From: an uncultured Spirochaetia bacterium
Lineage (GTDB): Bacteria; Spirochaetota; Spirochaetia; CAZBHR01
Length of the DNA: 64,000 nt
Assembly: GCA_964492025.1 (NCBI GenBank)
Contig: CAZBHR010000002.1
Location: 106,568 to 170,567 of the forward strand
Direction: 5' to 3'
Each line of letters begins with the position of its first letter. Positions within the stretch are counted from its first letter, which is position 1. The position numbers and the translations under genes are program-made. The notes under the pieces are model-generated. The model saw only the letters and a list, made by a program, of their open reading frames with translations. It did not search any database and was not told where the DNA came from. Below, one piece after another: positions 1-46,905 of the stretch.

Positions 1-342
1 GATCTCTTTTTAGACTTTATTCAAGAAGAGGATAGATCAATTTTGCTCTCATCTCATATTACCAGTGATTTAGAAAAAATTGCGGATTACATAACCTTTA
101 TTCATAAGGGAAAAGTGGCAATATCTACCACAAAAGATGAACTTATCTACAATTACGGTATTGTGCGGGGCTCAAAAGAGGATTTATCTGTGGTAGATCC
201 TGCAGATATTGTAGGGCGACGCACTCGGGAGAACCAAGAGAGCTTGTTGGTGCAAAATAAAGATCAGGTTGCAGAGAAGTACCCAAATCTGTTTATTGAT
301 AATAGTTCGTTAGAAGATATTATGCTTTACGTGCAAGGGTAG
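1..342 (+). CDS. ABC transporter ATP-binding protein, 3' part (gene begins upstream of window)
   Basis: Frame 1 is open from nt 1 to the stop at 340-342. Translation (...DRSILLSSHITSDLEKIADYITFIHKGKV...) matches the H-loop and C-terminal region of an ABC nucleotide-binding domain. Four small permease genes follow immediately. Confidence 0.6.
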   Translation, partial: DLFLDFIQEEDRSILLSSHITSDLEKIADYITFIHKGKVAISTTKDELIYNYGIVRGSKEDLSVVDPADIVGRRTRENQESLLVQNKDQVAEKYPNLFIDNSSLEDIMLYVQG

Positions 343-353
343 AGGAGATTAAT

Positions 354-986
354 ATGTTGGGGTTAATGAAGAATCATCTATATGCAGGTATGTATGGAAT
401 AAAAATAGCATTGGGCACTACCATTCTTCTTGCTGGTGCTGGAGTTGTGTTATTATCAGCTGGAGAAGGTTTACCGATGGATATTTTCTTTGCGTATTCG
501 GTTGTAATGCTTCCCTTTTTAGCTGTTTGCTCTATTAGCCCAGAAAGTGGAGCTAAGTGGAGTAGTTTTGAGTTGACCTTACCTATCTCAAAAAAAGATG
601 CCGTAGGTGCACAATATGTTATGTATTTTTGTTTCATGGTGGTTGGCTTACTGATAAGCTTTGTCTCTTTTGGAGTAAACGATCTTATTAACCCTCAAGT
701 AGTTTCTGTGCCTAAAATGATTTTTTCTTTTGTACTTTCCGTGCAAGAAGCCTTTATTATAGGGAGTGTGGGATTTCTACTTCTGATATTATTTGGACAA
801 GATAAAAGGGAAGTAATGTTTCTTTTAGCCTTCTTTATATCTGTTCCTTTTTCTATTGGATTCAGAATACTATTGGCTATATATGATATTTGGTATTTTC
901 CAATACTTATTGTGGTGAGTAGTGCTTTGTTATACATACTCTCTTATCTAATTTCTGTGGCTATATATAAGAAGAAAGATTTTTAA
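354..986 (+). CDS. ABC-2-type transporter permease, paralog 1 of 4
   Basis: 210 aa, hydrophobic with several predicted TM helices. N-terminus MLGLMKNHLY and C-terminus YKKKDF are shared with the three following ORFs. AGAGGAG ribosome-binding site just upstream. Confidence 0.55.
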   Translation: MLGLMKNHLYAGMYGIKIALGTTILLAGAGVVLLSAGEGLPMDIFFAYSVVMLPFLAVCSISPESGAKWSSFELTLPISKKDAVGAQYVMYFCFMVVGLLISFVSFGVNDLINPQVVSVPKMIFSFVLSVQEAFIIGSVGFLLLILFGQDKREVMFLLAFFISVPFSIGFRILLAIYDIWYFPILIVVSSALLYILSYLISVAIYKKKDF

Positions 987-998
987 AGGGAGGTTAAT

Positions 999-1664
999 AT
1001 GTTGGGGTTACTAAAGTATAATTATCATTCCTCATGGAGCTCTGTTCTTTTATCCTTTATACTGTACTTAACAGTATTATTTTTGGTTGTTATTATTCAG
1101 AGTTCTCTGATGTTTTCTCTTGCTGTATCACTGTCTTCTATGATGTTCTCCTTTTGCATATTTAGTACATCTGACCATGTAGATACCTCTACGTTATGGG
1201 CAAGTTTTGAGTTCTTACTTCCTATTGAAAAGAAAAAAATAATCCTAGCAAGGTATATTACTTTTCTTGTGTTTCTTCTGATGGGAGTTGTTTTAGGTGG
1301 CATTATTGTATGGTTACAGTCTGTTTTACAACCAGCACTACCTCTTCATACTCTCTTACTGGATATGTTCTTAGGTGTTGGATTTGGACTAGGATTTGGT
1401 GCAACTTTGATGGTAGAAACTTCTGCTTCAAAATCAGGTGGCAACCAAGGAATATCTGGATTGGTTTTTCTTGTAGCACCATTTTTGATACTCATCACTG
1501 TGGTGTGGGGAGTTGCAAAATTGTATGAGGTTTCCTTTATACAACTGTTCTTAGATAAGAGTATATATACTGTTGCTCTCTCTATATTTGTTCCTACAAA
1601 TATTCTTTTATGGCTTATTTCGTATCCTGTAAGTGTAAAACTTTACAAAACAAAGGAGTTTTAA
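999..1664 (+). CDS. ABC-2-type transporter permease, paralog 2 of 4
   Basis: 221 aa membrane protein, N-terminus MLGLLKYNYH, C-terminus YKTKEF. AGGGAGG ribosome-binding site upstream. Confidence 0.55.
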   Translation: MLGLLKYNYHSSWSSVLLSFILYLTVLFLVVIIQSSLMFSLAVSLSSMMFSFCIFSTSDHVDTSTLWASFEFLLPIEKKKIILARYITFLVFLLMGVVLGGIIVWLQSVLQPALPLHTLLLDMFLGVGFGLGFGATLMVETSASKSGGNQGISGLVFLVAPFLILITVVWGVAKLYEVSFIQLFLDKSIYTVALSIFVPTNILLWLISYPVSVKLYKTKEF

Positions 1665-2297
1665 ATGTTTGGTTTAATAAAGCATAATATCTATACTGGG
1701 GGCTTCGTTTTTTTTGTTTGGTTTGCACTATGCGCTGCTATTCTTTTTATAACAGGTATTGTGTCTAACCTAGCCAATTTTTCCATAGCTGCTTTTGGGT
1801 TCCTTGTCACTACTCCTATGCTGAGTACTGGAATGGTAAAGAAAGAGATACTCAGTCGTTGGAGTGTACAAGAATCGGTATTACCTATAAGAAAATATCA
1901 AGTTGTGACTACAAAATATATAGTACACTGCATATATTTAATTCCTTGCCTTATAGGAATCTTTGCTATTTTCTTTGTATTACCCTTGAGTAAAAGTGCT
2001 GGAGCTACTGTAGAGATAAGTGTTTTCGTATTTCTAGGAGTTTGTTTATCGTTATTATATGGAGCCCTCTATATACCATTTTTGTATATCTTAAAAGAGG
2101 CGAATCCAGACATTGTATCCCCCCTATGCTCTTTAATTGCAGCGGGACTTTTCGTTCTATCTATGAATATTTTTGATGGATCTTCTCTCTTTGAGGGTTT
2201 TAGTATGCGGGCTGTATATATCGCTCTGTTTATTGGACTTGTCTATGTAGCTTCAAATATACTTTCTTGGTATGTGTACAAGAAACGAGAGTTTTAG
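1665..2297 (+). CDS. ABC-2-type transporter permease, paralog 3 of 4
   Basis: 210 aa membrane protein, N-terminus MFGLIKHNIY, C-terminus YKKREF. ATG directly abuts the stop codon of paralog 2, with AAAGGAG upstream. Confidence 0.55.
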   Translation: MFGLIKHNIYTGGFVFFVWFALCAAILFITGIVSNLANFSIAAFGFLVTTPMLSTGMVKKEILSRWSVQESVLPIRKYQVVTTKYIVHCIYLIPCLIGIFAIFFVLPLSKSAGATVEISVFVFLGVCLSLLYGALYIPFLYILKEANPDIVSPLCSLIAAGLFVLSMNIFDGSSLFEGFSMRAVYIALFIGLVYVASNILSWYVYKKREF

Positions 2298-2363
2298 TTG
2301 TTCAAAAACATGGACGTAGTCCATGAAAAATTAATCGGCCATATTGAGGCAAAGGAGAACAAT

Positions 2364-2969
2364 ATGTTTGGTTTAATAAAAGATGTAATACATGCTCACA
2401 AATCGACAGTAATTATCTATGTCATAGTAGTAGTTCTTATCTCGCTCATTGCAATGTGGATAGAACGCTTTGATTTTCTAGACCTTTTTATTCCTGGGAT
2501 TCCCCCAGTTGCCTGTGTCTTGTTTCTTCCAGAACTCTATGGAAGAGAGACTCATTGGCATAATCAAAAAGCTACGGAAAAGCAGGTTGTTGGGTCTAAA
2601 TATGTGGTATTTCTTATGGTAATTGGGTTATCTTTTTTAGTATCATTACTGTTAACTATGTTTATTTCAGCCTCTGGCGAAAAAATAGTTGAATTTTTCA
2701 GAGCAGAATCTGCTTACATGGGGGTATCTCTTATTCTTGGAGCTACGTTCCTATTGTTGGCACACTTCTTGAATAAATATTCTCATCTCGTAATTATGCT
2801 AGTGAGTATGCTTGTATTGGTGGGTATCCTTGCGCTCATATTTGGTCTCTATAGCATTATATCATTCCCCCAGTCATCAGAAAAATTTATTTTTCTTGCT
2901 ATCAGCTGCGTGTTGTATATTATATCTTATTTTGTGTCAGTAGGTGTGTACAAGAAACGAGAGTTCTAG
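2364..2969 (+). CDS. ABC-2-type transporter permease, paralog 4 of 4
   Basis: The ORF track starts at 2298, but the ATG at 2364 is preceded by AAAGGAGA and gives N-terminus MFGLIKDVIH, matching the other paralogs. C-terminus YKKREF. Confidence 0.55.
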   Translation: MFGLIKDVIHAHKSTVIIYVIVVVLISLIAMWIERFDFLDLFIPGIPPVACVLFLPELYGRETHWHNQKATEKQVVGSKYVVFLMVIGLSFLVSLLLTMFISASGEKIVEFFRAESAYMGVSLILGATFLLLAHFLNKYSHLVIMLVSMLVLVGILALIFGLYSIISFPQSSEKFIFLAISCVLYIISYFVSVGVYKKREF

Positions 2970-2994
2970 AGAATTCTGCTACTGAACTTATAAA

Positions 2995-3026
2995 ACACCA
3001 CCCAAAGTAGGGTGGTGTTTCTTTAT
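2995..3026. terminator. Bidirectional intrinsic terminator between convergent genes
   Basis: Stem ACACCACCC (2995-3003) pairs with GGGTGGTGT (3010-3018) around loop AAAGTA. A-rich 5' flank and T-rich 3' flank (TTCTTTAT). Sits between permease paralog 4 (+) and the aminopeptidase gene (-). Confidence 0.5.
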
Positions 3027-3030
3027 AAAC

Positions 3031-4818
3031 TTATACTTCTGCAGTGGCCTCCGCAAGCCACTCCTGAACCGGTTCTGCTAAAAGGGGAGCCAGTTCTGCA
3101 TACACTCCAGCGTGGTAGTCATTGAGCCAATCTTTCTCCTCTGCGGTGAGGGCATCTGTATTAATCAGTTTTCGCTCAAAGGGTGTTATGGTAAGGGTTT
3201 CAAAACCGAGCCACTGGGCAAACTCTGTTGTTTCGCGTTTCTCTACAAGTACGAGATTTTCCAGTCGTATTCCATGTTTCCCTTCACGGTAAAGTCCTGG
3301 TTCATTGGAAAGGTACTGTCCAGCTTCCAGAGCAACATTAATTCCCTTTGGAGAGATACTCATAGGCCCTTCGTGTACATTCATGAAAAATCCTACTCCG
3401 TGTCCCGTTCCATGGCCGTAGTTCAATCCTACATCCCAGAGTGGTTTTCGTGCCAGTATATCAATCTGGTGTCCAAAGGTTCCTACGGGAAACTGGGCTG
3501 TTGCTAAGGCAATATGCCCTTTGAGTACTGCTGTGTAATCGGAAACCTGCTCCTCTGTGGGCTCTCCAATTAAGAGGGTTCTGGTAATATCGGTGGTTCC
3601 GCAGAGGTACTGTCCTCCTGAATCAAACACCATAAGCCCCTGTCCAGAAAGTGGTGCCGATAGCTCCTTTGATGCATGGTAGTGGTTAAGTACTCCATTC
3701 TCCTGATACCCCGCAATGGTAGCAAAGCTTTCATCAGTAAATCCCTTTTGTGCAGATCGGCACTCCTTAATTTTCTCCATGGTGTCCCACTCTGTAAGGG
3801 TACTTTTATCTTCAATAGAGTCAAACCAGTGTAGAAAGTTTGCCATTGCTACTCCATCAAGCTTATGTGCCTCTCTGAGTTGTGCTTTTTCGGTCTCTGT
3901 TTTTACTGCTTTTCGTGTAGTTATTGGGTGGGGTGTTATCTCCTTACCTACAACACTCTTCTGGAACTTTGTTATGAGTCCATAGGGTGCTGAGGTGGGG
4001 TCAATAATTACAGTTCCCTGAAGGGCTTCTACCTGACCATATACGCTATCGTAGGGGAGGAGTGTTACACTCTCTCCCAGTTCTGCTTGTAGCTCTTTAC
4101 TAAACGCTTCAATATGGGTGCAGAGAATTGCTTGCTTATTTGGGTTTCTAGATATTATCAAAAACCCCTCAAAAACAGGGTTGTACTGTTGCACAGTTCC
4201 TCGCAGGTTTAGGAGGTACCCAATCTCCGCAAGGTTTGTAGAAAGAAGGACATCCGATTTCCGCTCTTCCATATAGGTATACGCCCATGCGAGTCTCTCC
4301 TCTCGGGTCTCTCCTGTGTACGATGAATCAAGCGATACCACTTGCTCTTCTGGTGGGTTTGGTCGGTCTTCCCAGAGGGGAAGAAAGATGTTTTCCATTC
4401 CTTGTAAGGTTATACCTGCTCCTTCCAGCTCTTTTTGTAGGTCTAAAAATCCCTTGAATGAGATAGTCATACTATCAACACCAATAACAGATCCCTTCGG
4501 CATTTCTGCTTTCAGCCAATCTCCGTAGGAGAGTACTTCAGGAAGACCAAATTTATGAATTTCTACAGAAGTGCCTTCAACTTCACGGGCTGCTTGTACA
4601 TAGTATCTGCTGTCCACCCAAAGGTGTATTGCATCTTGGAGAACTACCACGGTTCCGGCAGATCCACTAAAACCAGTAATTCCCTGGCGTTCCATCCAGT
4701 GGGGTGGGAGATATTCGGTCTGATGAGGGTCTGTCCCTGTTATAATCCACCCGTCTATATTCTGCTTTGTAAGCTCCTCTTGAACACGGGAAATGCGGTT
4801 GTTTATGGTACTTTTCAT
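3031..4818 (-). CDS. Xaa-Pro aminopeptidase (M24B, aminopeptidase P family)
   Basis: 595 aa. C-terminal catalytic region with HGTGHGVGFFMNVHEGP and downstream acidic metal-ligand residues typical of M24B. AGGAG ribosome-binding site upstream of the ATG at 4818. Confidence 0.75.
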   Translation of the reverse strand: MKSTINNRISRVQEELTKQNIDGWIITGTDPHQTEYLPPHWMERQGITGFSGSAGTVVVLQDAIHLWVDSRYYVQAAREVEGTSVEIHKFGLPEVLSYGDWLKAEMPKGSVIGVDSMTISFKGFLDLQKELEGAGITLQGMENIFLPLWEDRPNPPEEQVVSLDSSYTGETREERLAWAYTYMEERKSDVLLSTNLAEIGYLLNLRGTVQQYNPVFEGFLIISRNPNKQAILCTHIEAFSKELQAELGESVTLLPYDSVYGQVEALQGTVIIDPTSAPYGLITKFQKSVVGKEITPHPITTRKAVKTETEKAQLREAHKLDGVAMANFLHWFDSIEDKSTLTEWDTMEKIKECRSAQKGFTDESFATIAGYQENGVLNHYHASKELSAPLSGQGLMVFDSGGQYLCGTTDITRTLLIGEPTEEQVSDYTAVLKGHIALATAQFPVGTFGHQIDILARKPLWDVGLNYGHGTGHGVGFFMNVHEGPMSISPKGINVALEAGQYLSNEPGLYREGKHGIRLENLVLVEKRETTEFAQWLGFETLTITPFERKLINTDALTAEEKDWLNDYHAGVYAELAPLLAEPVQEWLAEATAEV

Positions 4819-4946: not shown

Positions 4947-5141
4947 ATGAGAACAAATATCGTACTTAACGATGAATTAATACGAGAAGCCTTTCTCTAT
5001 GCTGGTACTATTAAAACAAAGAGAGAGTTGATTGAAGTTGCGTTGCAGGAGTATGTGGATAATTGTAAACGTAAAAAATTGAGTGATCTTAGAGGGGCGA
5101 TTCAGTTTTTAGATGATTACAATCACAAAGAGATGAGGTAG
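4947..5141 (+). CDS. vapB: Type II antitoxin, VapB-like
   Basis: 64-aa ORF (MRTNIVLNDELIREAF...) sits 4 nt upstream of a PIN-domain gene, the usual antitoxin-toxin arrangement. Confidence 0.6.
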   Translation: MRTNIVLNDELIREAFLYAGTIKTKRELIEVALQEYVDNCKRKKLSDLRGAIQFLDDYNHKEMR

Positions 5142-5145
5142 TCCG

Positions 5146-5565
5146 ATGTTTCTGGTGGATACCTCATTTTTTATTGACTACTTTAAAGGAACCGAAGGCT
5201 CGGAGTTTACTCAGTTTACACACCTTGTAGAGCAGGGAGTTCCCTGTGGAATTAATACATATATTTATCAAGAGTTACTCCAAGGAGCAAAAGACGAAAA
5301 GGAGTACGGTCTTCTTAAAAAGTATCTAAGCTCACTCCCTTTTTACCCTTTGAAGGATAATAAACAGTCTATTGAAGAGGCAGCCGCTCTTTACAGAAGG
5401 TGCCGGAAAAAGGGTGTTACCATAAGGAGCACTATAGACTGCCTTATTGTCCAAACAGCTTTAGAACATAATCTTGTGCTAGCTCATAATGACCGAGATT
5501 TTATTCGAATAGGAGAGGTTGTACCAGCACTGAAGCTCTTTTCTCCCGTAGCCTTTCTCTCCTGA
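5146..5565 (+). CDS. vapC: PIN-domain ribonuclease toxin, VapC-like
   Basis: 139 aa. N-terminus MFLVDTSFFIDYF carries the conserved N-terminal Asp of PIN domains. Tightly coupled to the upstream antitoxin ORF. Confidence 0.65.
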   Translation: MFLVDTSFFIDYFKGTEGSEFTQFTHLVEQGVPCGINTYIYQELLQGAKDEKEYGLLKKYLSSLPFYPLKDNKQSIEEAAALYRRCRKKGVTIRSTIDCLIVQTALEHNLVLAHNDRDFIRIGEVVPALKLFSPVAFLS

Positions 5566-41130: not shown

Positions 41131-42171
41131 CTATTTTTTTGCTATCCACGCAGCTCTGATTGGTGCGGGGTACCCTTCAATAGTTTTTGATGGATCCAAT
41201 GGGTTGAGAAAATCCTTGAGTGATTCAAACTGCATCCACTCAGTAGCACGCTGTTCTTCGGTGGTTGTGTGCGTTGTATCTAAGAGTGTTATATCTGAAA
41301 ACCCAGCCTCCTTTAGCCACGCTTCAAGTTGAGGGGGCGAGGGTATAGCAAAAACGTTTCTCATCTTTCCGTAACGATCTTTAGGGTGAAGAGATTCAAC
41401 AGCATCACTTTCAATAATAAGGGTTTCAAGAATACAGCTCCCCCCATCTACCAAGAGATCTCTTAGCTGTTTTAGGTGGTCTACCGGTGATTTTTGGTGG
41501 TAGATTACCCCCATGGAAAACACTACATCAAAGGAGTTTGTTATAGGAAGTATATCTGTATCCTTCAGGGGAAGCACTGCCACACGAGGATCTTGTAAAA
41601 AGTGCTGAATTGTTTGAAATTGAAAGTAAGAAACCCAGCTGGGATCAATGCCAGTAACCGACTCTGCCCCCTCTCCTAACATGCGAAGGCAGTGGTATCC
41701 ACTTCCACACCCAAGGTCGAGTATTTTTTTGTTTTTCAAAGAGGGAAGGTTAAGCCTGTCCCACTTCCAGTCAGATCTCCATTCCGTATCAATATCAACA
41801 CCCATAAGAGAAAAAGGACCCTTTCTCCAAGGACGAAGGTTCATAAGGAGTTTTCGGAGTGAATCAACCGATTGAAAATCCTCTGGTGGGGTGAGCCTTA
41901 TTGATCCTGCGGTGAGATCAATCTGTACTGGTTGTATTGCAGGGAGTTCATTGATCACTTGTATCCATTGAGGAACATCTCCATTTTCAGGAAACCGAAG
42001 TTTCTTCTCTATGAGCGGTGCTACTATATCTGCAACTTGGTGTAACCCTATGTTTCTCAGGTGTTCTAAGTGGGGAGTAGGGTCTATTCTTTCTGGAATT
42101 GGTACTCCTGCGGCTAGCTCTTTGAGTCGTTCTTTTTGGAGACGTTTACGACGGTTTCTTCGGGAACCCAC
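41131..42171 (-). CDS. cmoB: tRNA U34 carboxymethyltransferase
   Basis: 346 aa with strongly conserved CmoB blocks (WRKGPFSLMGVDIDTEWRSDWKWDRL, GCGSGYH, TTEEQRATEWM, EGYPAPIRAAWIAKK). GTG start 3 nt after the cmoA stop, with AAAGGAG inside the end of cmoA. Confidence 0.85.
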   Translation of the reverse strand: MGSRRNRRKRLQKERLKELAAGVPIPERIDPTPHLEHLRNIGLHQVADIVAPLIEKKLRFPENGDVPQWIQVINELPAIQPVQIDLTAGSIRLTPPEDFQSVDSLRKLLMNLRPWRKGPFSLMGVDIDTEWRSDWKWDRLNLPSLKNKKILDLGCGSGYHCLRMLGEGAESVTGIDPSWVSYFQFQTIQHFLQDPRVAVLPLKDTDILPITNSFDVVFSMGVIYHQKSPVDHLKQLRDLLVDGGSCILETLIIESDAVESLHPKDRYGKMRNVFAIPSPPQLEAWLKEAGFSDITLLDTTHTTTEEQRATEWMQFESLKDFLNPLDPSKTIEGYPAPIRAAWIAKK

Positions 42172-42174
42172 TGG

Positions 42175-42909
42175 TTACGCTCCTTTGATTGCAAGAAGGG
42201 AGATAAAACTCAGAGACTTCCACCATACATACACTGGAGTAAACCCTATGGTTGTAAGACGTGTCATATGGTCCTCTAGGGTATCTGGTATAAGTACATG
42301 TTCTAGGGCCTTTCTTTTTCGGCTAATCTCTGTTCGTGAGTACCCATTGAGTTCTTTGAAGTTGTGGTACGCTTCCTCTTGAAACTTCTGTTCCTTAGGG
42401 TCTTCAAAGATAATTTTTTCCGAGAGAATGAGAGCTCCCCCAGGGGTAAGGTTCTGATAAATACGTTGAAGGAGGGGTGTCCTTGACTGGGGGGCAAGAA
42501 ACTGTAAGGTAAAGTTCATTGCCACAAGAGAGGCATTCTCTATGGGAGTTTCTAAAATATCACCAAGAACTACAGATATTGGTATTTGCTGTCTCGCTCT
42601 GTCCACATTGGCTTGGCACCGTTGAACCATAGGTTCCGAATTGTCTATGGCAATAATACGGGTTCCTTCGGTAGTTGCACCCTGGGCCATAGATAAGGCT
42701 CCAGCTCCAAGAGAGGTGCCAAGGTCGTAGAGATTTGTGTGAGGTTGTCCGTACTGCTCGGCAAACACCTTTGTCATACCTATTACCTCACGGTATCCAG
42801 GGACGGATCGTTGAATCATATCTTCAAAGACCTCAACAACCTCTTTGTCAAAGCAGAATCCTCCGATACTTCGGGGATTTGTCATAAATATACTGTCTCT
42901 TTGAGCCAT
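42175..42909 (-). CDS. cmoA: Carboxy-S-adenosyl-L-methionine synthase
   Basis: 244 aa class I methyltransferase-fold protein directly upstream of, and translationally coupled to, cmoB. Confidence 0.85.
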   Translation of the reverse strand: MAQRDSIFMTNPRSIGGFCFDKEVVEVFEDMIQRSVPGYREVIGMTKVFAEQYGQPHTNLYDLGTSLGAGALSMAQGATTEGTRIIAIDNSEPMVQRCQANVDRARQQIPISVVLGDILETPIENASLVAMNFTLQFLAPQSRTPLLQRIYQNLTPGGALILSEKIIFEDPKEQKFQEEAYHNFKELNGYSRTEISRKRKALEHVLIPDTLEDHMTRLTTIGFTPVYVWWKSLSFISLLAIKGA

Positions 42910-43025: not shown

Positions 43026-43946
43026 ATGGATAGTGTAGAGTTACGAGGTAATATTCTTAATATACTGAAAAAACAAGGACCCATTTCGGGAGAGTCTCTT
43101 GCCCAGCAACTAGGGTTTTCTCGTGTTGCTCTGTGGAAGCATGTCGAAGCCCTACGTACTATGGGATACAATATAGTAGGATGCAGGGGAGGATATACCG
43201 TATCCGATAGTCAGGACCTTCTTTACCCCTGGGAATTTCCGGGAATGGAACAATATATACATTACTATCCAGAGTGTGGTTCTACCATGGATGAAGCAGA
43301 GTTACTTGTGTCACAAGGGGCTCCAGAGGGTTCTTTGGTTCTTGCGGGTGTCCAAACAAAGGGACGGGGAAGGCTTGGGCGTGTGTGGGAGTCTCCTGTG
43401 GGCGGAATTTATGGAACCCTCATTGTAAGACCAGAGTATCTTCCTTTACAGGAGTTTTGGACAATGCAGTGGAGACTTATCGTTTCCATTGTTCGTGCAG
43501 TACGAGAAATTGGGGTGGATGCATCTATTAAATGGCCAAATGATCTGTTAGTGGGGTCAAAAAAATTGACAGGAGTGATAGCAGAGACTCGATCTTCCGG
43601 TGGGTTTGTTGAGTGGGGGTTACTCGGTTTTGGTATTAACTGCAATAATCAGGTTCCCGAGGTTGGTGTATCCTTAGGATCACTTCTTGGAACACCTATA
43701 GATAGAAAAGCTCTTATTCGTGGAATTCTTACACACTTTCAAGAGGTTAGGGTGCTCTCTATAGAAGAGCTTACCCAACAGTGGAGGAGTTATACCTCAA
43801 CCTTGGGCAGGAAGGTTACTATTGATATGGGTGGTGGAAATACCCTTGAGGGAGTTGCTAAAGAGGTGTTTAGTGATGGGAGTCTTGTTGTTGTAGACAC
43901 CCAAGGAGAGGAGCATCGCTGTTACTCCGGTGATTGTTTGTATTAA
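43026..43946 (+). CDS. birA: Bifunctional biotin-protein ligase / biotin operon repressor
   Basis: 306 aa. N-terminal helix-turn-helix (ISGESLAQQLGFSRVALWKHVEALR), central ligase domain (GRGRLGRVWESP..., KWPNDLL). Ends ...EEHRCYSGDCLY. Confidence 0.8.
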   Translation: MDSVELRGNILNILKKQGPISGESLAQQLGFSRVALWKHVEALRTMGYNIVGCRGGYTVSDSQDLLYPWEFPGMEQYIHYYPECGSTMDEAELLVSQGAPEGSLVLAGVQTKGRGRLGRVWESPVGGIYGTLIVRPEYLPLQEFWTMQWRLIVSIVRAVREIGVDASIKWPNDLLVGSKKLTGVIAETRSSGGFVEWGLLGFGINCNNQVPEVGVSLGSLLGTPIDRKALIRGILTHFQEVRVLSIEELTQQWRSYTSTLGRKVTIDMGGGNTLEGVAKEVFSDGSLVVVDTQGEEHRCYSGDCLY

Positions 43947-43947
43947 G
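43909..43947 (+). repeat. 39-bp direct repeat, copy 1 (covers the last 36 nt of birA plus the base after the stop)
   Basis: AGGAGCATCGCTGTTACTCCGGTGATTGTTTGTATTAAG is identical to 44687-44725. Confidence 0.85.
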
Positions 43948-44068
43948 GGCATAAGTTAAGAACTCTTTCGGCCGTAGCTATAGAAGTGATTTCTATGAAG
44001 ATCTCTTATCATATATTTGACAGGCTGGACTAAATATAGTATCTTTAAAAGACTAGGAGGGGCGCTTT

Positions 44069-44341
44069 ATGAGTATTACAAACCATATAAAACCTATCTC
44101 ATATATTAAATCGCACGCAGCAGAGGTTCTTCAAGATGTTCACGAGACTAAGGTTCCTTATGTTATCACACAACATGGAGAAGCTAAGGCTGTCCTTATG
44201 GATACCTCTTCGTATGACTCTTTAATGGAGTCAATAAAAGTGCTTAAGCTCCTCCAGCAAGGAGAGAAGGATGTGGTTGAGGAGTGTGTTGTTGCTCAAG
44301 ATACTGTTTTTTCTCAGGTAGAGAAGATTTTTGACATATGA
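44069..44341 (+). CDS. Type II antitoxin, Phd/YefM family
   Basis: 90 aa (MSITNHIKPISYIKSHAAEVLQDVHETKVPYVITQHGEAKAVLMDTSSYDSL...). 4-nt overlap with the downstream toxin gene. GGAGG ribosome-binding site. Confidence 0.6.
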   Translation: MSITNHIKPISYIKSHAAEVLQDVHETKVPYVITQHGEAKAVLMDTSSYDSLMESIKVLKLLQQGEKDVVEECVVAQDTVFSQVEKIFDI

Positions 44342-44664
44342 GTAATGGGTTTTCAGTTCTGTGGACAGGTACAGCTGTAGAGGATTTGAAGTCTCTGTGT
44401 GAGTATCTTGCACAAGACTCAATGAATGTTGCTAGAAAGCAGTATAAAAAAATACGAGATAGAGCTAAAACACTTGAAACATTCCCTTTTGAAGGTCGTG
44501 TTATTCCTGAGTTACAGGTTCACAATATTTATACTTACAGAGAGCTTGTAATTTCTCCATGGAGATTGTTCTATCGTATAAGTAAGCAAGAGGTGTATGT
44601 ACTTGCAATAATAGATAGTAGGCGAGATATCCAAGATCTCCTTTTGGATCGTATTTTACGGTAA
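44338..44664 (+). CDS. Type II toxin, ParE/RelE family
   Basis: 108 aa, C-terminal ...YRELVISPWRLFYRISKQEVYVLAIIDSRRD typical of ParE/RelE. ATGA overlap with the antitoxin gene. Confidence 0.6.
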   Translation: MSNGFSVLWTGTAVEDLKSLCEYLAQDSMNVARKQYKKIRDRAKTLETFPFEGRVIPELQVHNIYTYRELVISPWRLFYRISKQEVYVLAIIDSRRDIQDLLLDRILR

Positions 44665-44686
44665 CCCTGTACACCTATCAACTAAT

Positions 44687-44725
44687 AGGAGCATCGCTGT
44701 TACTCCGGTGATTGTTTGTATTAAG
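44687..44725 (+). repeat. 39-bp direct repeat, copy 2 (non-coding duplicate of the birA 3' end)
   Basis: Exact copy of 43909-43947, located 23 nt after the toxin stop and just upstream of the bioY operator and promoter. Confidence 0.85.
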
Positions 44726-44768
44726 ATTATCCTGCATCCACAATTTGAGGTAGACACTCTTTTAGTCT

Positions 44769-44801
44769 TTTGTTAACCTGTATTTATAAATAAGTTAACG
44801 A
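44769..44801 (+). promoter_or_regulatory. Candidate BirA operator overlapping the bioY promoter
   Basis: Half-sites TTGTTAACC (44769-44778) and AGTTAACGA (44793-44801) form an imperfect inverted repeat separated by about 14 nt of AT-rich sequence containing TATAAA. Lies about 30 nt upstream of bioY. Confidence 0.4.
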
Positions 44802-44830
44802 TAATAAAGATTCACTGCAAAGGAGTGTTG

Positions 44831-45385
44831 ATGAACAGAACAAAATCAATTATTTTAATAGCCCTAGGTGTTGCCCTTGTATGGGTTGGGTCGGTTGTCT
44901 CAATTCCTATTGGTCCTGTACCAATAACTCTACAAACTATGATGGTTGTAGTGGTGGGAATGATGTTAGGCCCTACTCGTGGAGGGTTGGCTATTCTTCT
45001 TTACTACCTTTTAGGAGTTATAGGAATTCCGGTTTTTGCTGGATTTAAATCGGGGGTTGCCGTATTTACCACCTCTCCCACAGCAGGGTTTTTATTAGGG
45101 TTTTTTCCCGCTGCTCTTATTTCGGGAATCCTCTTTTCTGTGGCTACATGGTTTAAAGGAGTTGTCCGATATGTTCTGATTGCCGTAGCTGCGGTTGTTG
45201 GAATGGTAGTTCCGTATACTTTGGGGATTCCTCTTTTTATGAGCTATACAGGAAAAACCCTCGCCGAATCGCTTCCCCTTGTATTAACTCCATTTATTGT
45301 AGGAGATGTGATTAAAACATTTGCTGCCACTCTTGTTGGGGGAGCACTTTTACGGTTTCGTAGTGTTGATGGAGAGAACTCCTAA
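44831..45385 (+). CDS. bioY: Biotin transporter S component
   Basis: About 184 aa, multi-TM, with conserved BioY block (PIGPVPITLQTMMVV). Start set to ATG 44831, 5 nt after AGGAG. Confidence 0.75.
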   Translation: MNRTKSIILIALGVALVWVGSVVSIPIGPVPITLQTMMVVVVGMMLGPTRGGLAILLYYLLGVIGIPVFAGFKSGVAVFTTSPTAGFLLGFFPAALISGILFSVATWFKGVVRYVLIAVAAVVGMVVPYTLGIPLFMSYTGKTLAESLPLVLTPFIVGDVIKTFAATLVGGALLRFRSVDGENS

Positions 45386-45430
45386 GGTGAGTTTATATCA
45401 TAATATGAGTGATATACAGAAGGCATACCT

Positions 45431-46186
45431 ATGATACCTCATACAAAACCCATTGTTTCAGTTGAAAATCTTTACTACTCAATTGGGAAAAATCCAATTT
45501 TACAGGGTGTAAATCTCAAGGTAGAACCTGCAGAGATTGTAGTTCTTGCTGGTCGTAATGGGTGTGGGAAAAGTATTTTATCTCGACATATACGAGGGCT
45601 TATTCCTCTAAAAAAAGATCAGGGAGATATTCGTATTGATGGAGTCTCTATGGTTGGTCATAAGGGGGTTTACCCCGATGTGGGGCTTGTATTTCAGGAC
45701 CCTGACTTACAAATTGTGGGTAGTAGTGTAGAGAAAGATATTGCCTTTGGTCCAGAAAACCTAAAAATGGATAGAGAAGAGGTTTCTCGACGAGTTAGGG
45801 CAATTGGGGATCAGTTGGAGCTTACAAAACTTTTTACCCGTCGTCCACATACTCTTTCTGGTGGTGAAAAGCGGCGAGTTGCCATGGCTGGTGTTATGAT
45901 TATGGAGCCTAAGCTTCTCATTTTAGATGAACCCTTTGTAGCCTTGGACTATCCAATGATTAGAGAGATCCTCTCAATTATTGTAGATTTACAAAAGCGG
46001 GGAGTGGCAACACTAATTATTACCCACGATTTAGAAGTGTGTTTAGCCCATGCTGATAGGCTTGCCCTTATGTCTGAAGGAGCGATACTCTCTCAAGCAC
46101 CTCCGCAAGAAAATATCCACAGAATTACCGAAGTAGGGCTTCATCCTCCCCGTTTAGCTGTGGGGGAGTGCACATGGCTGAATTAA
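45431..46186 (+). CDS. ECF transporter ATPase (BioM/EcfA-type)
   Basis: 251 aa with Walker A (GRNGCGKS), signature (LSGGEKRR) and Walker B (ILDEP). Confidence 0.75.
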   Translation: MIPHTKPIVSVENLYYSIGKNPILQGVNLKVEPAEIVVLAGRNGCGKSILSRHIRGLIPLKKDQGDIRIDGVSMVGHKGVYPDVGLVFQDPDLQIVGSSVEKDIAFGPENLKMDREEVSRRVRAIGDQLELTKLFTRRPHTLSGGEKRRVAMAGVMIMEPKLLILDEPFVALDYPMIREILSIIVDLQKRGVATLIITHDLEVCLAHADRLALMSEGAILSQAPPQENIHRITEVGLHPPRLAVGECTWLN

Positions 46187-46905
46187 GGATTCTTCATTAT
46201 CAACCAGGGGAGAGTTGGCTTCATCGACACCACCCTGGAGCAAAGTTTCTCGAGTTTCTGGGAATTAATATTGTATTAGTGTTACTACCTCTCTGGAGTT
46301 CAGCTCTTTTTTTGATACCCCTTGTGGTACTGTTTCCGTTTGTTGGATTTGATCGAAAAACCTTTACATCTCTTGGAATAGCCGTGGTCAGTATGATGGT
46401 ATTCTTTATTTGTATTGGAATGCTCTCTGTGGAGGGGGTTTGGTTCTCTCTTTCTGGATGGAACGTTGGGGTGTTGCAGGGGCTTCGGTTTATTACACTG
46501 ACCCTATGGGCGGTACTTTTTTTGGGAGTAACAGACCCTTGGGATATTGCGGGATGTATCGGTTCGCTCGGAAGAGGACGGGTAAAACTATTCTCCTATT
46601 TAGGTTTTGCTATAGCCTTAGTGTTAAGTTTCTTTCCTATGCTTTTAGATAGGGCTCTTGAACAAGGGGAGGCGTTAAGAAATAGAGGGTTAACCTTTCG
46701 TAATCCGATTAGATACTGTGCCTTTCTTGGGAGTAAACTGGTTATTTCTGTAGAACTTCTTGCGGATGATCTTTCCATGGCTATCGAGTCTCGTTGTTAT
46801 CGACCAGATAGAGCTTGGGGAATTCCTCGTTGGAAGGTTGTTGATATAGTTGGAGTCTTTACTGTTTGGATTGTTCTTGGAGTCTTATTTATTATTTTTC
46901 CATAA
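46174..46905 (+). CDS. ECF transporter transmembrane (T) component (BioN/EcfT-type)
   Basis: About 243 aa polytopic protein, overlaps the ATPase gene; start ATG 46174 or GTG 46168. Confidence 0.7.
   Translation: MAELRILHYQPGESWLHRHHPGAKFLEFLGINIVLVLLPLWSSALFLIPLVVLFPFVGFDRKTFTSLGIAVVSMMVFFICIGMLSVEGVWFSLSGWNVGVLQGLRFITLTLWAVLFLGVTDPWDIAGCIGSLGRGRVKLFSYLGFAIALVLSFFPMLLDRALEQGEALRNRGLTFRNPIRYCAFLGSKLVISVELLADDLSMAIESRCYRPDRAWGIPRWKVVDIVGVFTVWIVLGVLFIIFP

What the first reader, a model, noticed from the sequence alone, without database searches (positions are those of the whole stretch)
1..2969. Four tandem paralogous small permease genes behind a single ABC ATPase
Four consecutive ORFs (354-986, 999-1664, 1665-2297, 2364-2969) encode roughly 200-220-aa polytopic membrane proteins. 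They share a conserved N-terminus (M-[LF]-G-L-[LMI]-K) and a conserved C-terminal tail (Y-K-[KT]-[KR]-[DE]-F) but are otherwise diverged. They are tightly packed, with stop-start abutment between the second and third, and follow one ABC ATPase gene that runs off the window start. ABC-2-type exporters usually pair an ATPase with one or two permeases, so a four-fold paralog array served by one ATPase is unusual. It could reflect a heteromeric permease assembly, alternative substrate-specific partners, or an immunity/export system for a membrane-active compound.
Basis: seen in the sequence. Interest (0 to 1): 0.5.

Follow-up and report, generated by a model that had tools for sequence, protein, structure and literature searches.

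The report
Four swappable permeases, one ABC ATPase
A known kind of bacterial pump against membrane-attacking peptides (repressor + ATPase + membrane subunit) here carries four very different membrane-subunit genes instead of the usual one, and closely related strains have exchanged the middle two as a block, which suggests a swappable repertoire for coping with different peptides.

Summary

The copy number is unusual. Of 128 informative related loci, 123 have one permease, 5 have two and none has more. The paralogs (21-27% identical) keep the ATPase-docking elements and diverge in the membrane helices.

Between strains whose flanks are 91-94% identical, the p2-p3 bodies are replaced as a block (28-31% protein identity), with breakpoints in the conserved terminal codons. 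A third variant lacks p2-p3 and carries a 69-aa bacteriocin-like gene.

Best reading: one ATPase/repressor chassis serves several exchangeable membrane subunits. Assembly mode, substrates and host taxon are unresolved. New variant of a known kind.

The parts
1..342 (+). 3' end (last 113 codons + stop) of the single ABC ATPase gene. The full gene is 283 aa in the near-identical contig L001 (5315-6166).
   Evidence: best NCBIfam match is PmtA, positions 175-279 of 282; the full protein matches PmtA end to end at 264 bits (cutoff 350). AF2 model pLDDT 88 with a small alpha/beta domain after the ATPase core.
354..986 (+). p1, a 210-aa ABC2_membrane_5 permease. It is the conserved 'anchor' copy: 80-88% identical among strain variants and the copy most like single-copy relatives.
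999..1664 (+). p2, a 221-aa ABC2_membrane_5 permease and first half of the variable block.
   Evidence: 54 bits. (only 31% identical to the positional ortholog s2). (p2+s2 bootstrap 92%). (8 synonymous and 8 nonsynonymous differences against L091, dN/dS 0.30).
1665..2297 (+). p3, a 210-aa ABC2_membrane_5 permease and second half of the variable block. Its start abuts the p2 stop.
   Evidence: 56 bits. (28% to s3). (p3+s3 bootstrap 83%).
1023..2263 (+). Block (p2 codon 9 to about p3 codon 200) that has no DNA similarity to the sister strain, although the flanks are 91-94% identical. It is absent from a third variant.
   Evidence: BLASTN boundaries. (window and L087 are 100% identical over 960-1022, then diverge abruptly). 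(the sister arrangement occurs in three independent assemblies that are 99.8-100% identical).
2309..2325 (+). Conserved 7-bp hairpin (CATGGAC-GTA-GTCCATG) in the 66-nt p3-p4 spacer. The same spacer follows p1 in variant L090.
   Evidence: spacer fold -17.8 kcal/mol, z -3.39. (spacer conserved in L087 and L090, with a different loop in L090). Its function is unknown.
2364..2969 (+). p4, a 201-aa ABC2_membrane_5 permease and the last gene of the operon.
   Evidence: 33.7 bits, above the cutoff of 25. (40% to t4 of L090; the first 21 aa are identical in L087). (4 synonymous and 4 nonsynonymous differences against L091, dN/dS 0.31).
338..385 (+). Start-junction repeat (RBS + ATG TTN GGN TTA NTN AAR). 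Further copies lie at 983-1030, 1649-1696 and 2348-2395.
   Evidence: four copies, 69-71% identical over 48 nt. The left breakpoint of the variable block lies at the end of the 983-1030 copy.
2273..2297 (+). End-junction repeat encoding V-Y-K-K-R-E-F-stop. Further copies lie at 2945-2969 (96%) and 962-986 (68%).
   Evidence: The right breakpoint of the block and the deletion joint of L090 lie in this repeat.
2988..3028 (.). Terminator-like hairpin between the operon and the convergent M24 aminopeptidase gene (3031-4818, minus strand).
   Evidence: -19.5 kcal/mol, z -4.05, followed by UUUCUUUAU and preceded by an A-run, so it could act in both directions.

Best explanation
The window holds the distal part of one operon: promoter/operator, YtrA-type GntR repressor, one PmtA-like ABC ATPase, and four type V (ABC-2) membrane subunits. 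This is an expanded version of the very common three-gene repressor-ATPase-permease module of Bacillota. In the two studied cases that module extracts amphipathic or membrane-active peptides from the membrane (PmtCD) or senses bacteriocins and switches on resistance (MbrRAB). Shown: the gene content, the fold, the regulatory signals, the rarity of more than two permeases, and the block replacement between strains. Inferred: (1) all four membrane subunits dock on the same ATPase dimer through the conserved N-terminal connecting helix, the region around the coupling helix, and the C-terminal tail; (2) their divergent membrane helices give them different peptide specificities; (3) the repressor sits on the palindrome over the -10 element and is released when the transporter engages a substrate; (4) the conserved codons at the gene ends act as recombination points, so p2-p3 can be replaced or deleted as a unit, giving strains different repertoires in the arms race with peptide-producing competitors.
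Against: There is no experimental or expression data for this locus. Whether the four proteins form alternative homodimers, heterodimers or one fixed complex was not testable. The substrate is unknown, and no bacteriocin gene is visible in the 64-kb window. The 69-aa ORF of L090 matches no family significantly (best E 0.083) and is known from a single 1.6-kb contig. None of the Pmt equivalog cutoffs is reached. In S. salivarius, deleting MbrAB did not change BlpK resistance, so sensing rather than efflux may be the primary role. The survey covers the closest ATPase relatives, not the whole Pfam family. The origin of the paralogs is unresolved: monophyly has 6% bootstrap support. The host is an unnamed uncultured lineage.
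Confidence: 0.55

Rival explanations
1. Obligate heteromeric transporter. The four proteins are not alternatives but fixed partners, for example a p2/p3 heterodimer and a p1/p4 heterodimer (or p1 and p4 homodimers), each on an ATPase dimer. This would parallel the two different permeases of lantibiotic LanFEG immunity transporters.
For: The p2 stop abuts the p3 start, suggesting translational coupling. p2 and p3 are replaced together in L087 and lost together in L090, as expected if they co-evolve as a pair. Five relatives have two permeases behind one ATPase.
Against: PmtAB and PmtCD, the studied relatives, are homodimeric in the membrane subunit, and 123 of 128 relatives work with one permease. 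Variant L090 lacks p2-p3, so p1 and p4 do not need them. No multimer modelling or interaction data were available here.
Confidence: 0.25
2. Multi-input sensor rather than pump. As proposed for MbrAB, the membrane subunits mainly detect peptides and drive ATP-dependent sequestration of the repressor by the ATPase. Four subunits would widen the range of peptides that switch on a resistance regulon located elsewhere.
For: MbrAB deletion did not alter BlpK resistance, while point mutations in MbrB derepressed the regulon through MbrA. The architecture and promoter palindrome are the same here.
Against: No second copy of the palindrome occurs in the 64-kb window: 1 match at 3 mismatches against 3.85 expected by chance. 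No regulon is therefore visible, although the rest of the genome is unseen. PmtCD does export peptides and protect the cell. This rival is not exclusive of the best explanation.
Confidence: 0.2
3. Dedicated export and self-immunity for the organism's own secreted peptide(s), as Pmt serves the phenol-soluble modulins, rather than defence against foreign peptides.
For: Variant L090 carries a 69-aa cationic peptide gene inside the array, driven by the RBS that serves p4 in the window and followed by a hairpin. On the C. perfringens plasmid the module lies beside a RiPP cluster.
Against: The window strain has no such peptide gene in the array or elsewhere in 64 kb. Most relatives have no adjacent peptide gene in the contexts inspected. 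The peptide has no significant family match.
Confidence: 0.15
4. The substrate is not a peptide. The array could handle other membrane-resident molecules such as lipids, glycolipids or hydrophobic drugs, as many type V ABC transporters do.
For: The fold neighbours include NosY, CcmB, ABCG/ABCA, LptFG and Rv1217c. The ATPase core is most similar by sequence to ABCA-type and NosF ATPases.
Against: The closest structural match is PmtD, and the closest profiles for the regulator and ATPase are PmtR and PmtA. The only functionally studied YtrA-ATPase-permease modules of this layout respond to peptides. Deleting mbrR did not change antibiotic susceptibility.
Confidence: 0.12
5. Redundant or decaying duplicates with no special meaning: only p1 works, and p2-p4 are drifting.
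For: p1 is by far the most conserved copy and the best Pfam match. p2-p4 evolve 6-11 times faster in distance terms.
Against: All copies are intact in every assembly, keep strong RBSs and the docking motifs, and show dN/dS of about 0.3 where measurable. The replacement block in L087 also consists of two intact family members.
Confidence: 0.05

Closest known systems
PmtR-PmtABCD phenol-soluble-modulin exporter of Staphylococcus (PMC5080381, PMC7527219, PMC9974410)
   Same: YtrA-type GntR repressor first in the operon, bound at its own promoter. The ATPase is PmtA-like along its whole length. The membrane subunit has six helices and a type V fold, and PmtD is the best structural match. The docking elements (connecting helix, coupling helix) are the conserved parts. 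Handles membrane-active peptides.
   Different: Pmt has two ATPases and two permeases forming two separate homodimeric transporters; here one ATPase serves four permeases. Scores are below every Pmt equivalog cutoff: PmtA 264 of 350, PmtR 105 of 200, PmtB 11.7 of 100. No PSM genes are known here. No strain-level cassette exchange has been described for Pmt.
MbrRAB 'extruder-repressor' module of Streptococcus salivarius (bioRxiv 10.64898/2026.02.18.706565)
   Same: Same gene order (repressor, ATPase, membrane subunit), a palindromic operator at the promoter, and a role in bacteriocin sensing and resistance. The authors report that the layout is conserved across Bacillota, which agrees with 141 of 146 loci here.
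   Different: MbrRAB has one membrane subunit. The sequestration mechanism is untested here, and no regulon is visible in the window.
Generic GntR-ATPase-'ABC-2 transporter permease' (PF13346) modules of Clostridia and Bacilli, on chromosomes and plasmids
   Same: ATPase 41-58% identical; same family-wide N- and C-terminal permease motifs; same operon order.
   Different: 123 of 128 informative loci have one permease and 5 have two; none has three or four. No block polymorphism was examined or known there.
LanFEG-type lantibiotic immunity ABC transporters (established knowledge; NCBIfam TIGR03740 and TIGR03732)
   Same: One ATPase gene with more than one different ABC-2-type permease gene; protects against a membrane-active peptide.
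   Different: Different permease families: p1-p4 give no hit to MutE/EpiE, and the ATPase scores 142 of 309.75 on the gallidermin-type model. Two permeases, not four; usually under a two-component system rather than a YtrA repressor.
Shared-ATPase importers: group II ECF transporters and FhuC or MsiK-type 'multitask' ATPases (PMC10368641, PMC10147376)
   Same: Concept only: one energising module serves several exchangeable membrane or substrate-specific subunits.
   Different: These are importers of unrelated fold. Their partner genes are scattered in the genome rather than arrayed in one operon, and there is no cassette replacement.

Membership tests
Pfam PF13346 ABC2_membrane_5 | Whole-protein score above the gathering cutoff (25 bits) with near full-length profile coverage | tested here: met
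   p1 76.1, p2 54.0, p3 56.0 and p4 33.7 bits, covering profile positions 1-3 to 203-205 of 205. The variant genes s2, s3 and t4 also carry PF13346.
Type V (ABC-2) ABC transporter membrane domain | Six membrane helices without domain swap, an N-terminal amphipathic connecting helix, and a short coupling helix in the TM2/TM3 loop | tested here: met
Pmt system (PmtR/PmtA/PmtB/PmtC/PmtD equivalogs) | NCBIfam equivalog cutoffs for PmtA (350), PmtB (100) and PmtR (200) | tested here: not met
   PmtA 264.1 bits, PmtR 105.1 bits, PmtB 11.7 bits (p1 only). These are the best-scoring families for the regulator and ATPase, but all are below cutoff. The locus is a relative, not an ortholog.
Pmt system | Two ATPase genes and two permease genes (A-B-C-D) forming two homodimeric transporters | tested here: not met
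   one ATPase gene followed by four permease genes.
Pmt system | ATPase with a C-terminal 'basket' (ACT-like) dimerisation domain | tested here: inconclusive
YtrA subfamily of GntR regulators | Small size (about 120-130 aa): an N-terminal winged HTH plus only a short C-terminal extension | tested here: met
   125 aa; PF00392 covers residues 14-76; the best family is PmtR (a YtrA-type regulator according to PMC5080381), aligned 1-115 of 125.
YtrA subfamily / MbrR-PmtR type autoregulation | Palindromic operator at the promoter of its own operon | tested here: met
   perfect 13-nt arms GCTATATTGTACT / AGTACAATATAGC overlap the -10 element; the arms are conserved in the diverged promoter of L093. 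Binding itself is inferred.
MbrRAB module | Sequence homology to MbrR, MbrA and MbrB | not tested
   The preprint text gives no sequences and the tools hold none, so only architecture could be compared.
MbrRAB module | ATP-dependent sequestration of the repressor by the ATPase on peptide sensing | not testable with these tools
   Needs interaction assays or complex modelling. Only single-chain prediction was available.
LanFEG lantibiotic immunity transporter | ATPase above the TIGR03740 cutoff and permeases matching the MutE/EpiE or MutG/EpiG families | tested here: not met
   TIGR03740 142.1 bits against a cutoff of 309.75; no lantibiotic-permease family hit for p1-p4.
Known anti-phage defence systems (PADLOC) | System-specific protein models matching the components | tested here: not met
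   only generic P-loop/ABC-domain matches for the ATPase; nothing for the GntR or the four permeases.

The most novel reading that the evidence does not exclude
The locus is a modular, recombination-driven repertoire. A constant chassis (repressor, ATPase, p1 and the junction sequences) accepts interchangeable membrane-subunit cassettes, whose conserved first and last codons double as ATPase-docking motifs and as crossover points. Strains in one community would thus carry different sets of peptide-specific extruders or sensors, possibly widened further by mixed dimers. This would be an immunity-island logic applied to transporter subunits. Such a design has not been described for ABC exporters.
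Probability: 0.3. Interest if true: 0.7.

Novelty: new variant of a known kind. Interest (0 to 1): 0.5.

Why it matters
The repressor-ATPase-permease module is among the commonest peptide-resistance devices of Gram-positive bacteria and has only recently been explained mechanistically. A natural version with one ATPase and four membrane subunits that are about 75% different from one another is a ready-made experiment. The parts that must stay constant (the docking helices and tail) and the parts that are free to vary (the membrane helices facing the lipid and the substrate) are already separated by evolution. If the subunits differ in peptide specificity, the locus would show how specificity is encoded in type V peptide extruders. 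It would also show that bacteria can diversify resistance by swapping transporter subunits rather than whole systems. The block polymorphism between co-occurring strains suggests ongoing selection by competitors' peptides in the source community.

Tried and rejected
1. The word-indexed homolog search with p1 found only 4 proteins, and with a 37-sequence permease profile only 15. The permeases diverge too fast, so the ATPase was used as the anchor instead.
2. A JGI metagenome scan with the p1 group found nothing.
3. A PDB sequence search with the paralog profile gave only noise.
4. Foreign origin by composition was rejected as inconclusive. The permeases have GC3 of about 0.28, but other membrane permeases in the window have about 0.30, and the GntR and ATPase look native.
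5. In-situ duplication, suggested by monophyly of the lineage's paralogs in one NJ tree, is withdrawn: bootstrap support is 6% and the distances are saturated.
6. The basket-domain comparison with PmtC was inconclusive.
7. A regulon search found no further operator-like site in the window.
8. Silent donor cassettes, as in gene-conversion systems, were not found: there is no other family member in the 64 kb. No reverse transcriptase, integrase or recombinase appears in the flanks of L001 or L091, so DGR- or integron-type mechanisms are not supported.
9. Internal promoters: consensus matches in the AT-rich array are at chance level, 11 found against 13.4 expected.
10. A known defence system was rejected.
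11. Assembly artefact was rejected. The sister arrangement recurs in three independent assemblies, the window arrangement recurs in several, and both variants occur in one sample, GCA_019825985.1.
12. Host taxonomy: exact look-ups returned no names, accession numbers are in no paper, and no rRNA or tRNA lies in the window. The only named relative of the pyrophosphatase is a Clostridia MAG at 56% identity.
Full report
OBSERVATION. Each is preceded by an AGGAG-type ribosome-binding site. p2 and p3 abut (TAA 1662-1664, ATG 1665). p1-p2 are 12 nt apart and p3-p4 66 nt apart. Bases 1-342 encode the C-terminal 113 residues of an ABC ATPase. All four proteins match Pfam PF13346 (ABC2_membrane_5) over the whole profile and above the gathering score, with E from 3.6e-21 to 3.3e-8. 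Pairwise they are 21-27% identical, with BLASTP E of 1e-4 to 1e-7. They are therefore true, old paralogs rather than look-alikes by composition. The N-terminal M-x-G-L-x-K and C-terminal Y-K-x-[KR]-[DE]-F motifs are real. They are also the consensus of 87 permeases from other genomes, so they characterise the family, not this array.

THE WHOLE OPERON. Exact look-up of p1 found near-identical contigs that extend upstream (L091 is 98.7% identical to the window over 3.1 kb). They show, on one strand, a 125-aa GntR-family protein, a 283-aa ABC ATPase, then p1-p4. A convergent M24 aminopeptidase gene follows. Upstream of the GntR gene lies a near-consensus promoter, TTGACA-17-TATATT with a TG-extended -10. 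It is overlapped by a perfect inverted repeat, GCTATATTGTACT-N10-AGTACAATATAGC. In a more distant relative (L093, ATPase 88% identical) the surrounding promoter has diverged, but the hexamers and both palindrome arms are intact, while a second, imperfect repeat is not conserved. After p4 there is a strong hairpin (-19.5 kcal/mol, z -4.05) followed by a U-rich run. The consensus scan gives no more internal promoter-like sites than chance. The simplest reading is a single autoregulated transcript.

WHAT IS KNOWN ABOUT SUCH MODULES. PmtR is a YtrA-type repressor that binds a 36-bp site at its own promoter and is released by the exported peptides (PMC5080381). PmtAB and PmtCD are separate homodimeric transporters. 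PmtD docks on the ATPase through the connecting helix (TMH1a) and the coupling helix in the TMH2/3 loop (PMC7527219). PmtCD takes amphipathic peptides out of the membrane and also protects against LL-37 (PMC9974410). In S. salivarius, MbrAB senses bacteriocins, and its ATPase sequesters the repressor MbrR in an ATP-dependent way, derepressing a resistance regulon; the authors report the layout across Bacillota.

HOW UNUSUAL FOUR COPIES ARE. I fetched the 80 closest ATPase relatives from species-representative genomes and 80 from metagenomes. These ATPases are 47-58% identical to the query, and the named genome records are mostly Clostridia and Bacilli. I then counted permease genes with an iteratively built HMM. 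Using one criterion, at least 800 nt of sequence beyond the last permease, 128 loci are informative: 123 have one permease, 5 have two and none has three or more. A relaxed search found no hidden diverged copies. Three more distant permease homologs and four plasmid-borne relatives also have a single permease. The GntR gene lies directly upstream in 141 of 146 assessable loci. The two-permease loci are scattered taxonomically, and four of the five pairs are 30-63% identical; the L074 pair aligns over only 19 residues. The four-gene array is therefore a rare expansion of a highly stereotyped three-gene module. The caveat is that the survey samples the ATPase's nearest relatives, not all of PF13346.

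WHAT IS CONSERVED AMONG THE COPIES. I mapped seven mutually divergent copies from this lineage onto the p1 model. The highest conservation falls on the connecting helix (mean BLOSUM62 pair score 2.31), the L-P-[IV]-x-[KR] loop just after the coupling helix (2.27) and the C-terminal tail (3.47). W69 and E73 in the coupling helix are nearly invariant. TM1, TM2, TM4 and TM5 score 0.08-0.49. The first two elements are those that contact the ATPase in PmtCD. This is what one expects if all copies must dock on the same ATPase while their membrane faces are free to diverge. That interpretation is an inference.

STRAIN-LEVEL BLOCK REPLACEMENT. Three independent assemblies, 99.8-100% identical to each other, carry a sister version of the locus. 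There the ATPase tail, p1 and the p1-p2 spacer are 91.5% identical in DNA to the window, and the p3 end, spacer and p4 start are 94% identical. From window position 1023 to 2263 there is no detectable DNA similarity. The left edge is abrupt: the sequences are 100% identical over 960-1022, that is through codon 8 of p2, and unrelated from 1023. The genes in that interval (s2, s3) are intact family members but only 31% and 28% identical to p2 and p3, whereas p1 is 84% identical. Synonymous divergence of the flanks is only 0.14-0.22, so the middle cannot have diverged in place at ordinary rates. Either the block or the flanks were exchanged by recombination, with crossovers in the conserved end codons. 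Positional orthology is supported by bootstrap: p2+s2 92%, p3+s3 83%, p4+t4 99%. Both versions occur in the same sample, GCA_019825985.1.

A THIRD VARIANT. L090 (seen in two samples) has p1 (80% identical) joined directly to the p3-p4 spacer. Its joint...TATATAAGAAGAAAGA|GTTTTAGTTGTT..., is what a deletion between the 16-nt identical stretch at the 3' ends of p1 and of an s3-type gene would give. A 69-aa ORF follows, using the RBS that serves p4 in the window, then a hairpin and a p4-type gene only 40% identical to p4. Within the window the junction repeats are modest: 69-71% over 48 nt at the starts, and 96% over 25 nt between the p3 and p4 ends.

THE 69-AA ORF. MKNNIQRNVMVNVDELTRLATYGG-NDGGPQPRGIVISAVTVAATKIISATTGGAVTGYISKKASKFFGC has a leader-like N-terminus ending in GG and a cationic core rich in Gly, Ala, Ser and Thr. 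This is reminiscent of class II bacteriocins or lanthipeptide beta-peptides. However, its best family match is not significant (lichenicidin A2 family, E 0.083; no Pfam hit), and it has no relative in any sequence held here. It is a lead, not evidence.

CONTEXT IN RELATIVES. On C. perfringens plasmids of about 54 kb, the ATPase-permease pair lies back to back with three things: a 70-aa ORF resembling huazacin-family RiPP precursors (E 6.6e-6, below cutoff), sactipeptide-type radical-SAM/SPASM maturases, and an ABC exporter gene. A B. tropicus megaplasmid has a PqqD-like ORF and a radical-SAM fragment beside the module. A C. difficile plasmid has the module followed by BceAB/RS-like genes. These associations fit a role in coping with peptide antimicrobials.

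ARE ALL FOUR GENES FUNCTIONAL? They are intact in every assembly. Against L091, p2 has 8 synonymous and 8 nonsynonymous differences (dN/dS 0.30) and p4 has 4 and 4 (0.31). p1 against the sister strain gives 0.38. p3 has too few changes to judge. This argues against decaying duplicates.

MECHANISM PROPOSED. Shown: the gene set, fold, promoter/operator, terminator, rarity of the expansion, conservation pattern and block polymorphism. Inferred: the repressor occupies the palindrome until the transporter engages a membrane-active peptide. The single ATPase dimer energises membrane-subunit dimers made from p1-p4. The divergent helices give different peptide ranges. Recombination at the conserved ends exchanges p2-p3 as a unit. 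Because p2 and p3 are translationally coupled and always gained or lost together, a p2/p3 heterodimer is a serious alternative to four homodimers. A mainly sensory role, as in the Mbr model, is also open. None of these could be separated with single-chain tools.

WHAT REMAINS UNCERTAIN. The substrate is unknown, and no bacteriocin locus is visible in the 64 kb, which otherwise encodes ordinary chromosomal functions. The origin of the paralogs is unresolved: the four are as distant from each other (2.4-2.8) as from permeases of other families (median 2.4), and monophyly has 6% support. Composition gives no clear sign of transfer. The host is an uncultured lineage found only in a few related assemblies. 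Its pyrophosphatase is at most 62% identical to anything in a 1.8-billion-protein library, and the only named relative is a Clostridia MAG.

VERDICT. This is a new variant of a known kind of system: a Pmt/Mbr-type repressor-ATPase-permease module in which the membrane subunit has been expanded to four divergent copies behind one ATPase, with the inner pair exchanged as a block between co-occurring strains. Interest is moderate (0.5). It would be higher if the subunits prove to be peptide-specific and combinable.

Noticed in passing
L090:735-944 (+), Logan SRR26065833 contig, not in the window: A 69-aa ORF with a GG-ending leader-like N-terminus and a cationic Gly/Ala/Ser/Thr-rich core with a single C-terminal Cys. 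It sits between a p1-type and a p4-type permease gene and is followed by a hairpin. No significant family match (best TIGR03893, E 0.083).
   Followed up: partly
window 4947-5565 (+): A VapB/VapC (PIN) toxin-antitoxin pair lies just downstream of the convergent aminopeptidase gene in the window strain (also in L001 and L003). In strain L091 the same position holds an AAA_14/DUF4143 gene instead, so the neighbourhood of the array is also strain-variable.
   Followed up: partly
L001:2720-4903 versus L091:854-9615: Upstream of the GntR gene, strain L091 has a histidine kinase, an AraC-type response regulator and a sugar ABC importer (about 6.6 kb) between the DUF5696/GH101-like gene and the operon. 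In L001 the DUF5696 gene is directly adjacent. This is another indel polymorphism flanking the locus.
   Followed up: no
window 2296-2366 (+): The p3-p4 spacer folds into a conserved 7-bp hairpin flanked by A-runs. An outer stem pairs the sequence just after the p3 stop with the bases between the p4 RBS and its ATG (-17.8 kcal/mol, z -3.39). On the minus strand it reads as a terminator-like site. Its role (processing site, translational control or recombination scar) is unknown.
   Followed up: partly
L179:1-3540 (C. perfringens plasmid NZ_CP075914.1): A sactipeptide-like gene cluster lies divergently next to a single-permease relative of the module. It consists of a 70-aa huazacin-family-like precursor (below cutoff), a CcpM/RumMC-like radical-SAM maturase, a SPASM protein and an ABC exporter gene. 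This module copy has no GntR gene annotated.
   Followed up: partly
L042:6977-8248 (+), Clostridiales MAG DUNO01000001.1: In this relative the ATPase and permease are read as one 423-aa ORF. This is either a natural ATPase-permease fusion or a sequencing frameshift.
   Followed up: no
window 41131-42909 (-) and 43026-46905 (+): CmoB/CmoA-like tRNA modification methyltransferase genes, and a BirA-like repressor/ligase gene followed by three genes that may be biotin ECF-type transporter components (not profiled). Ordinary, but they could serve as markers for placing the unnamed host.
   Followed up: no
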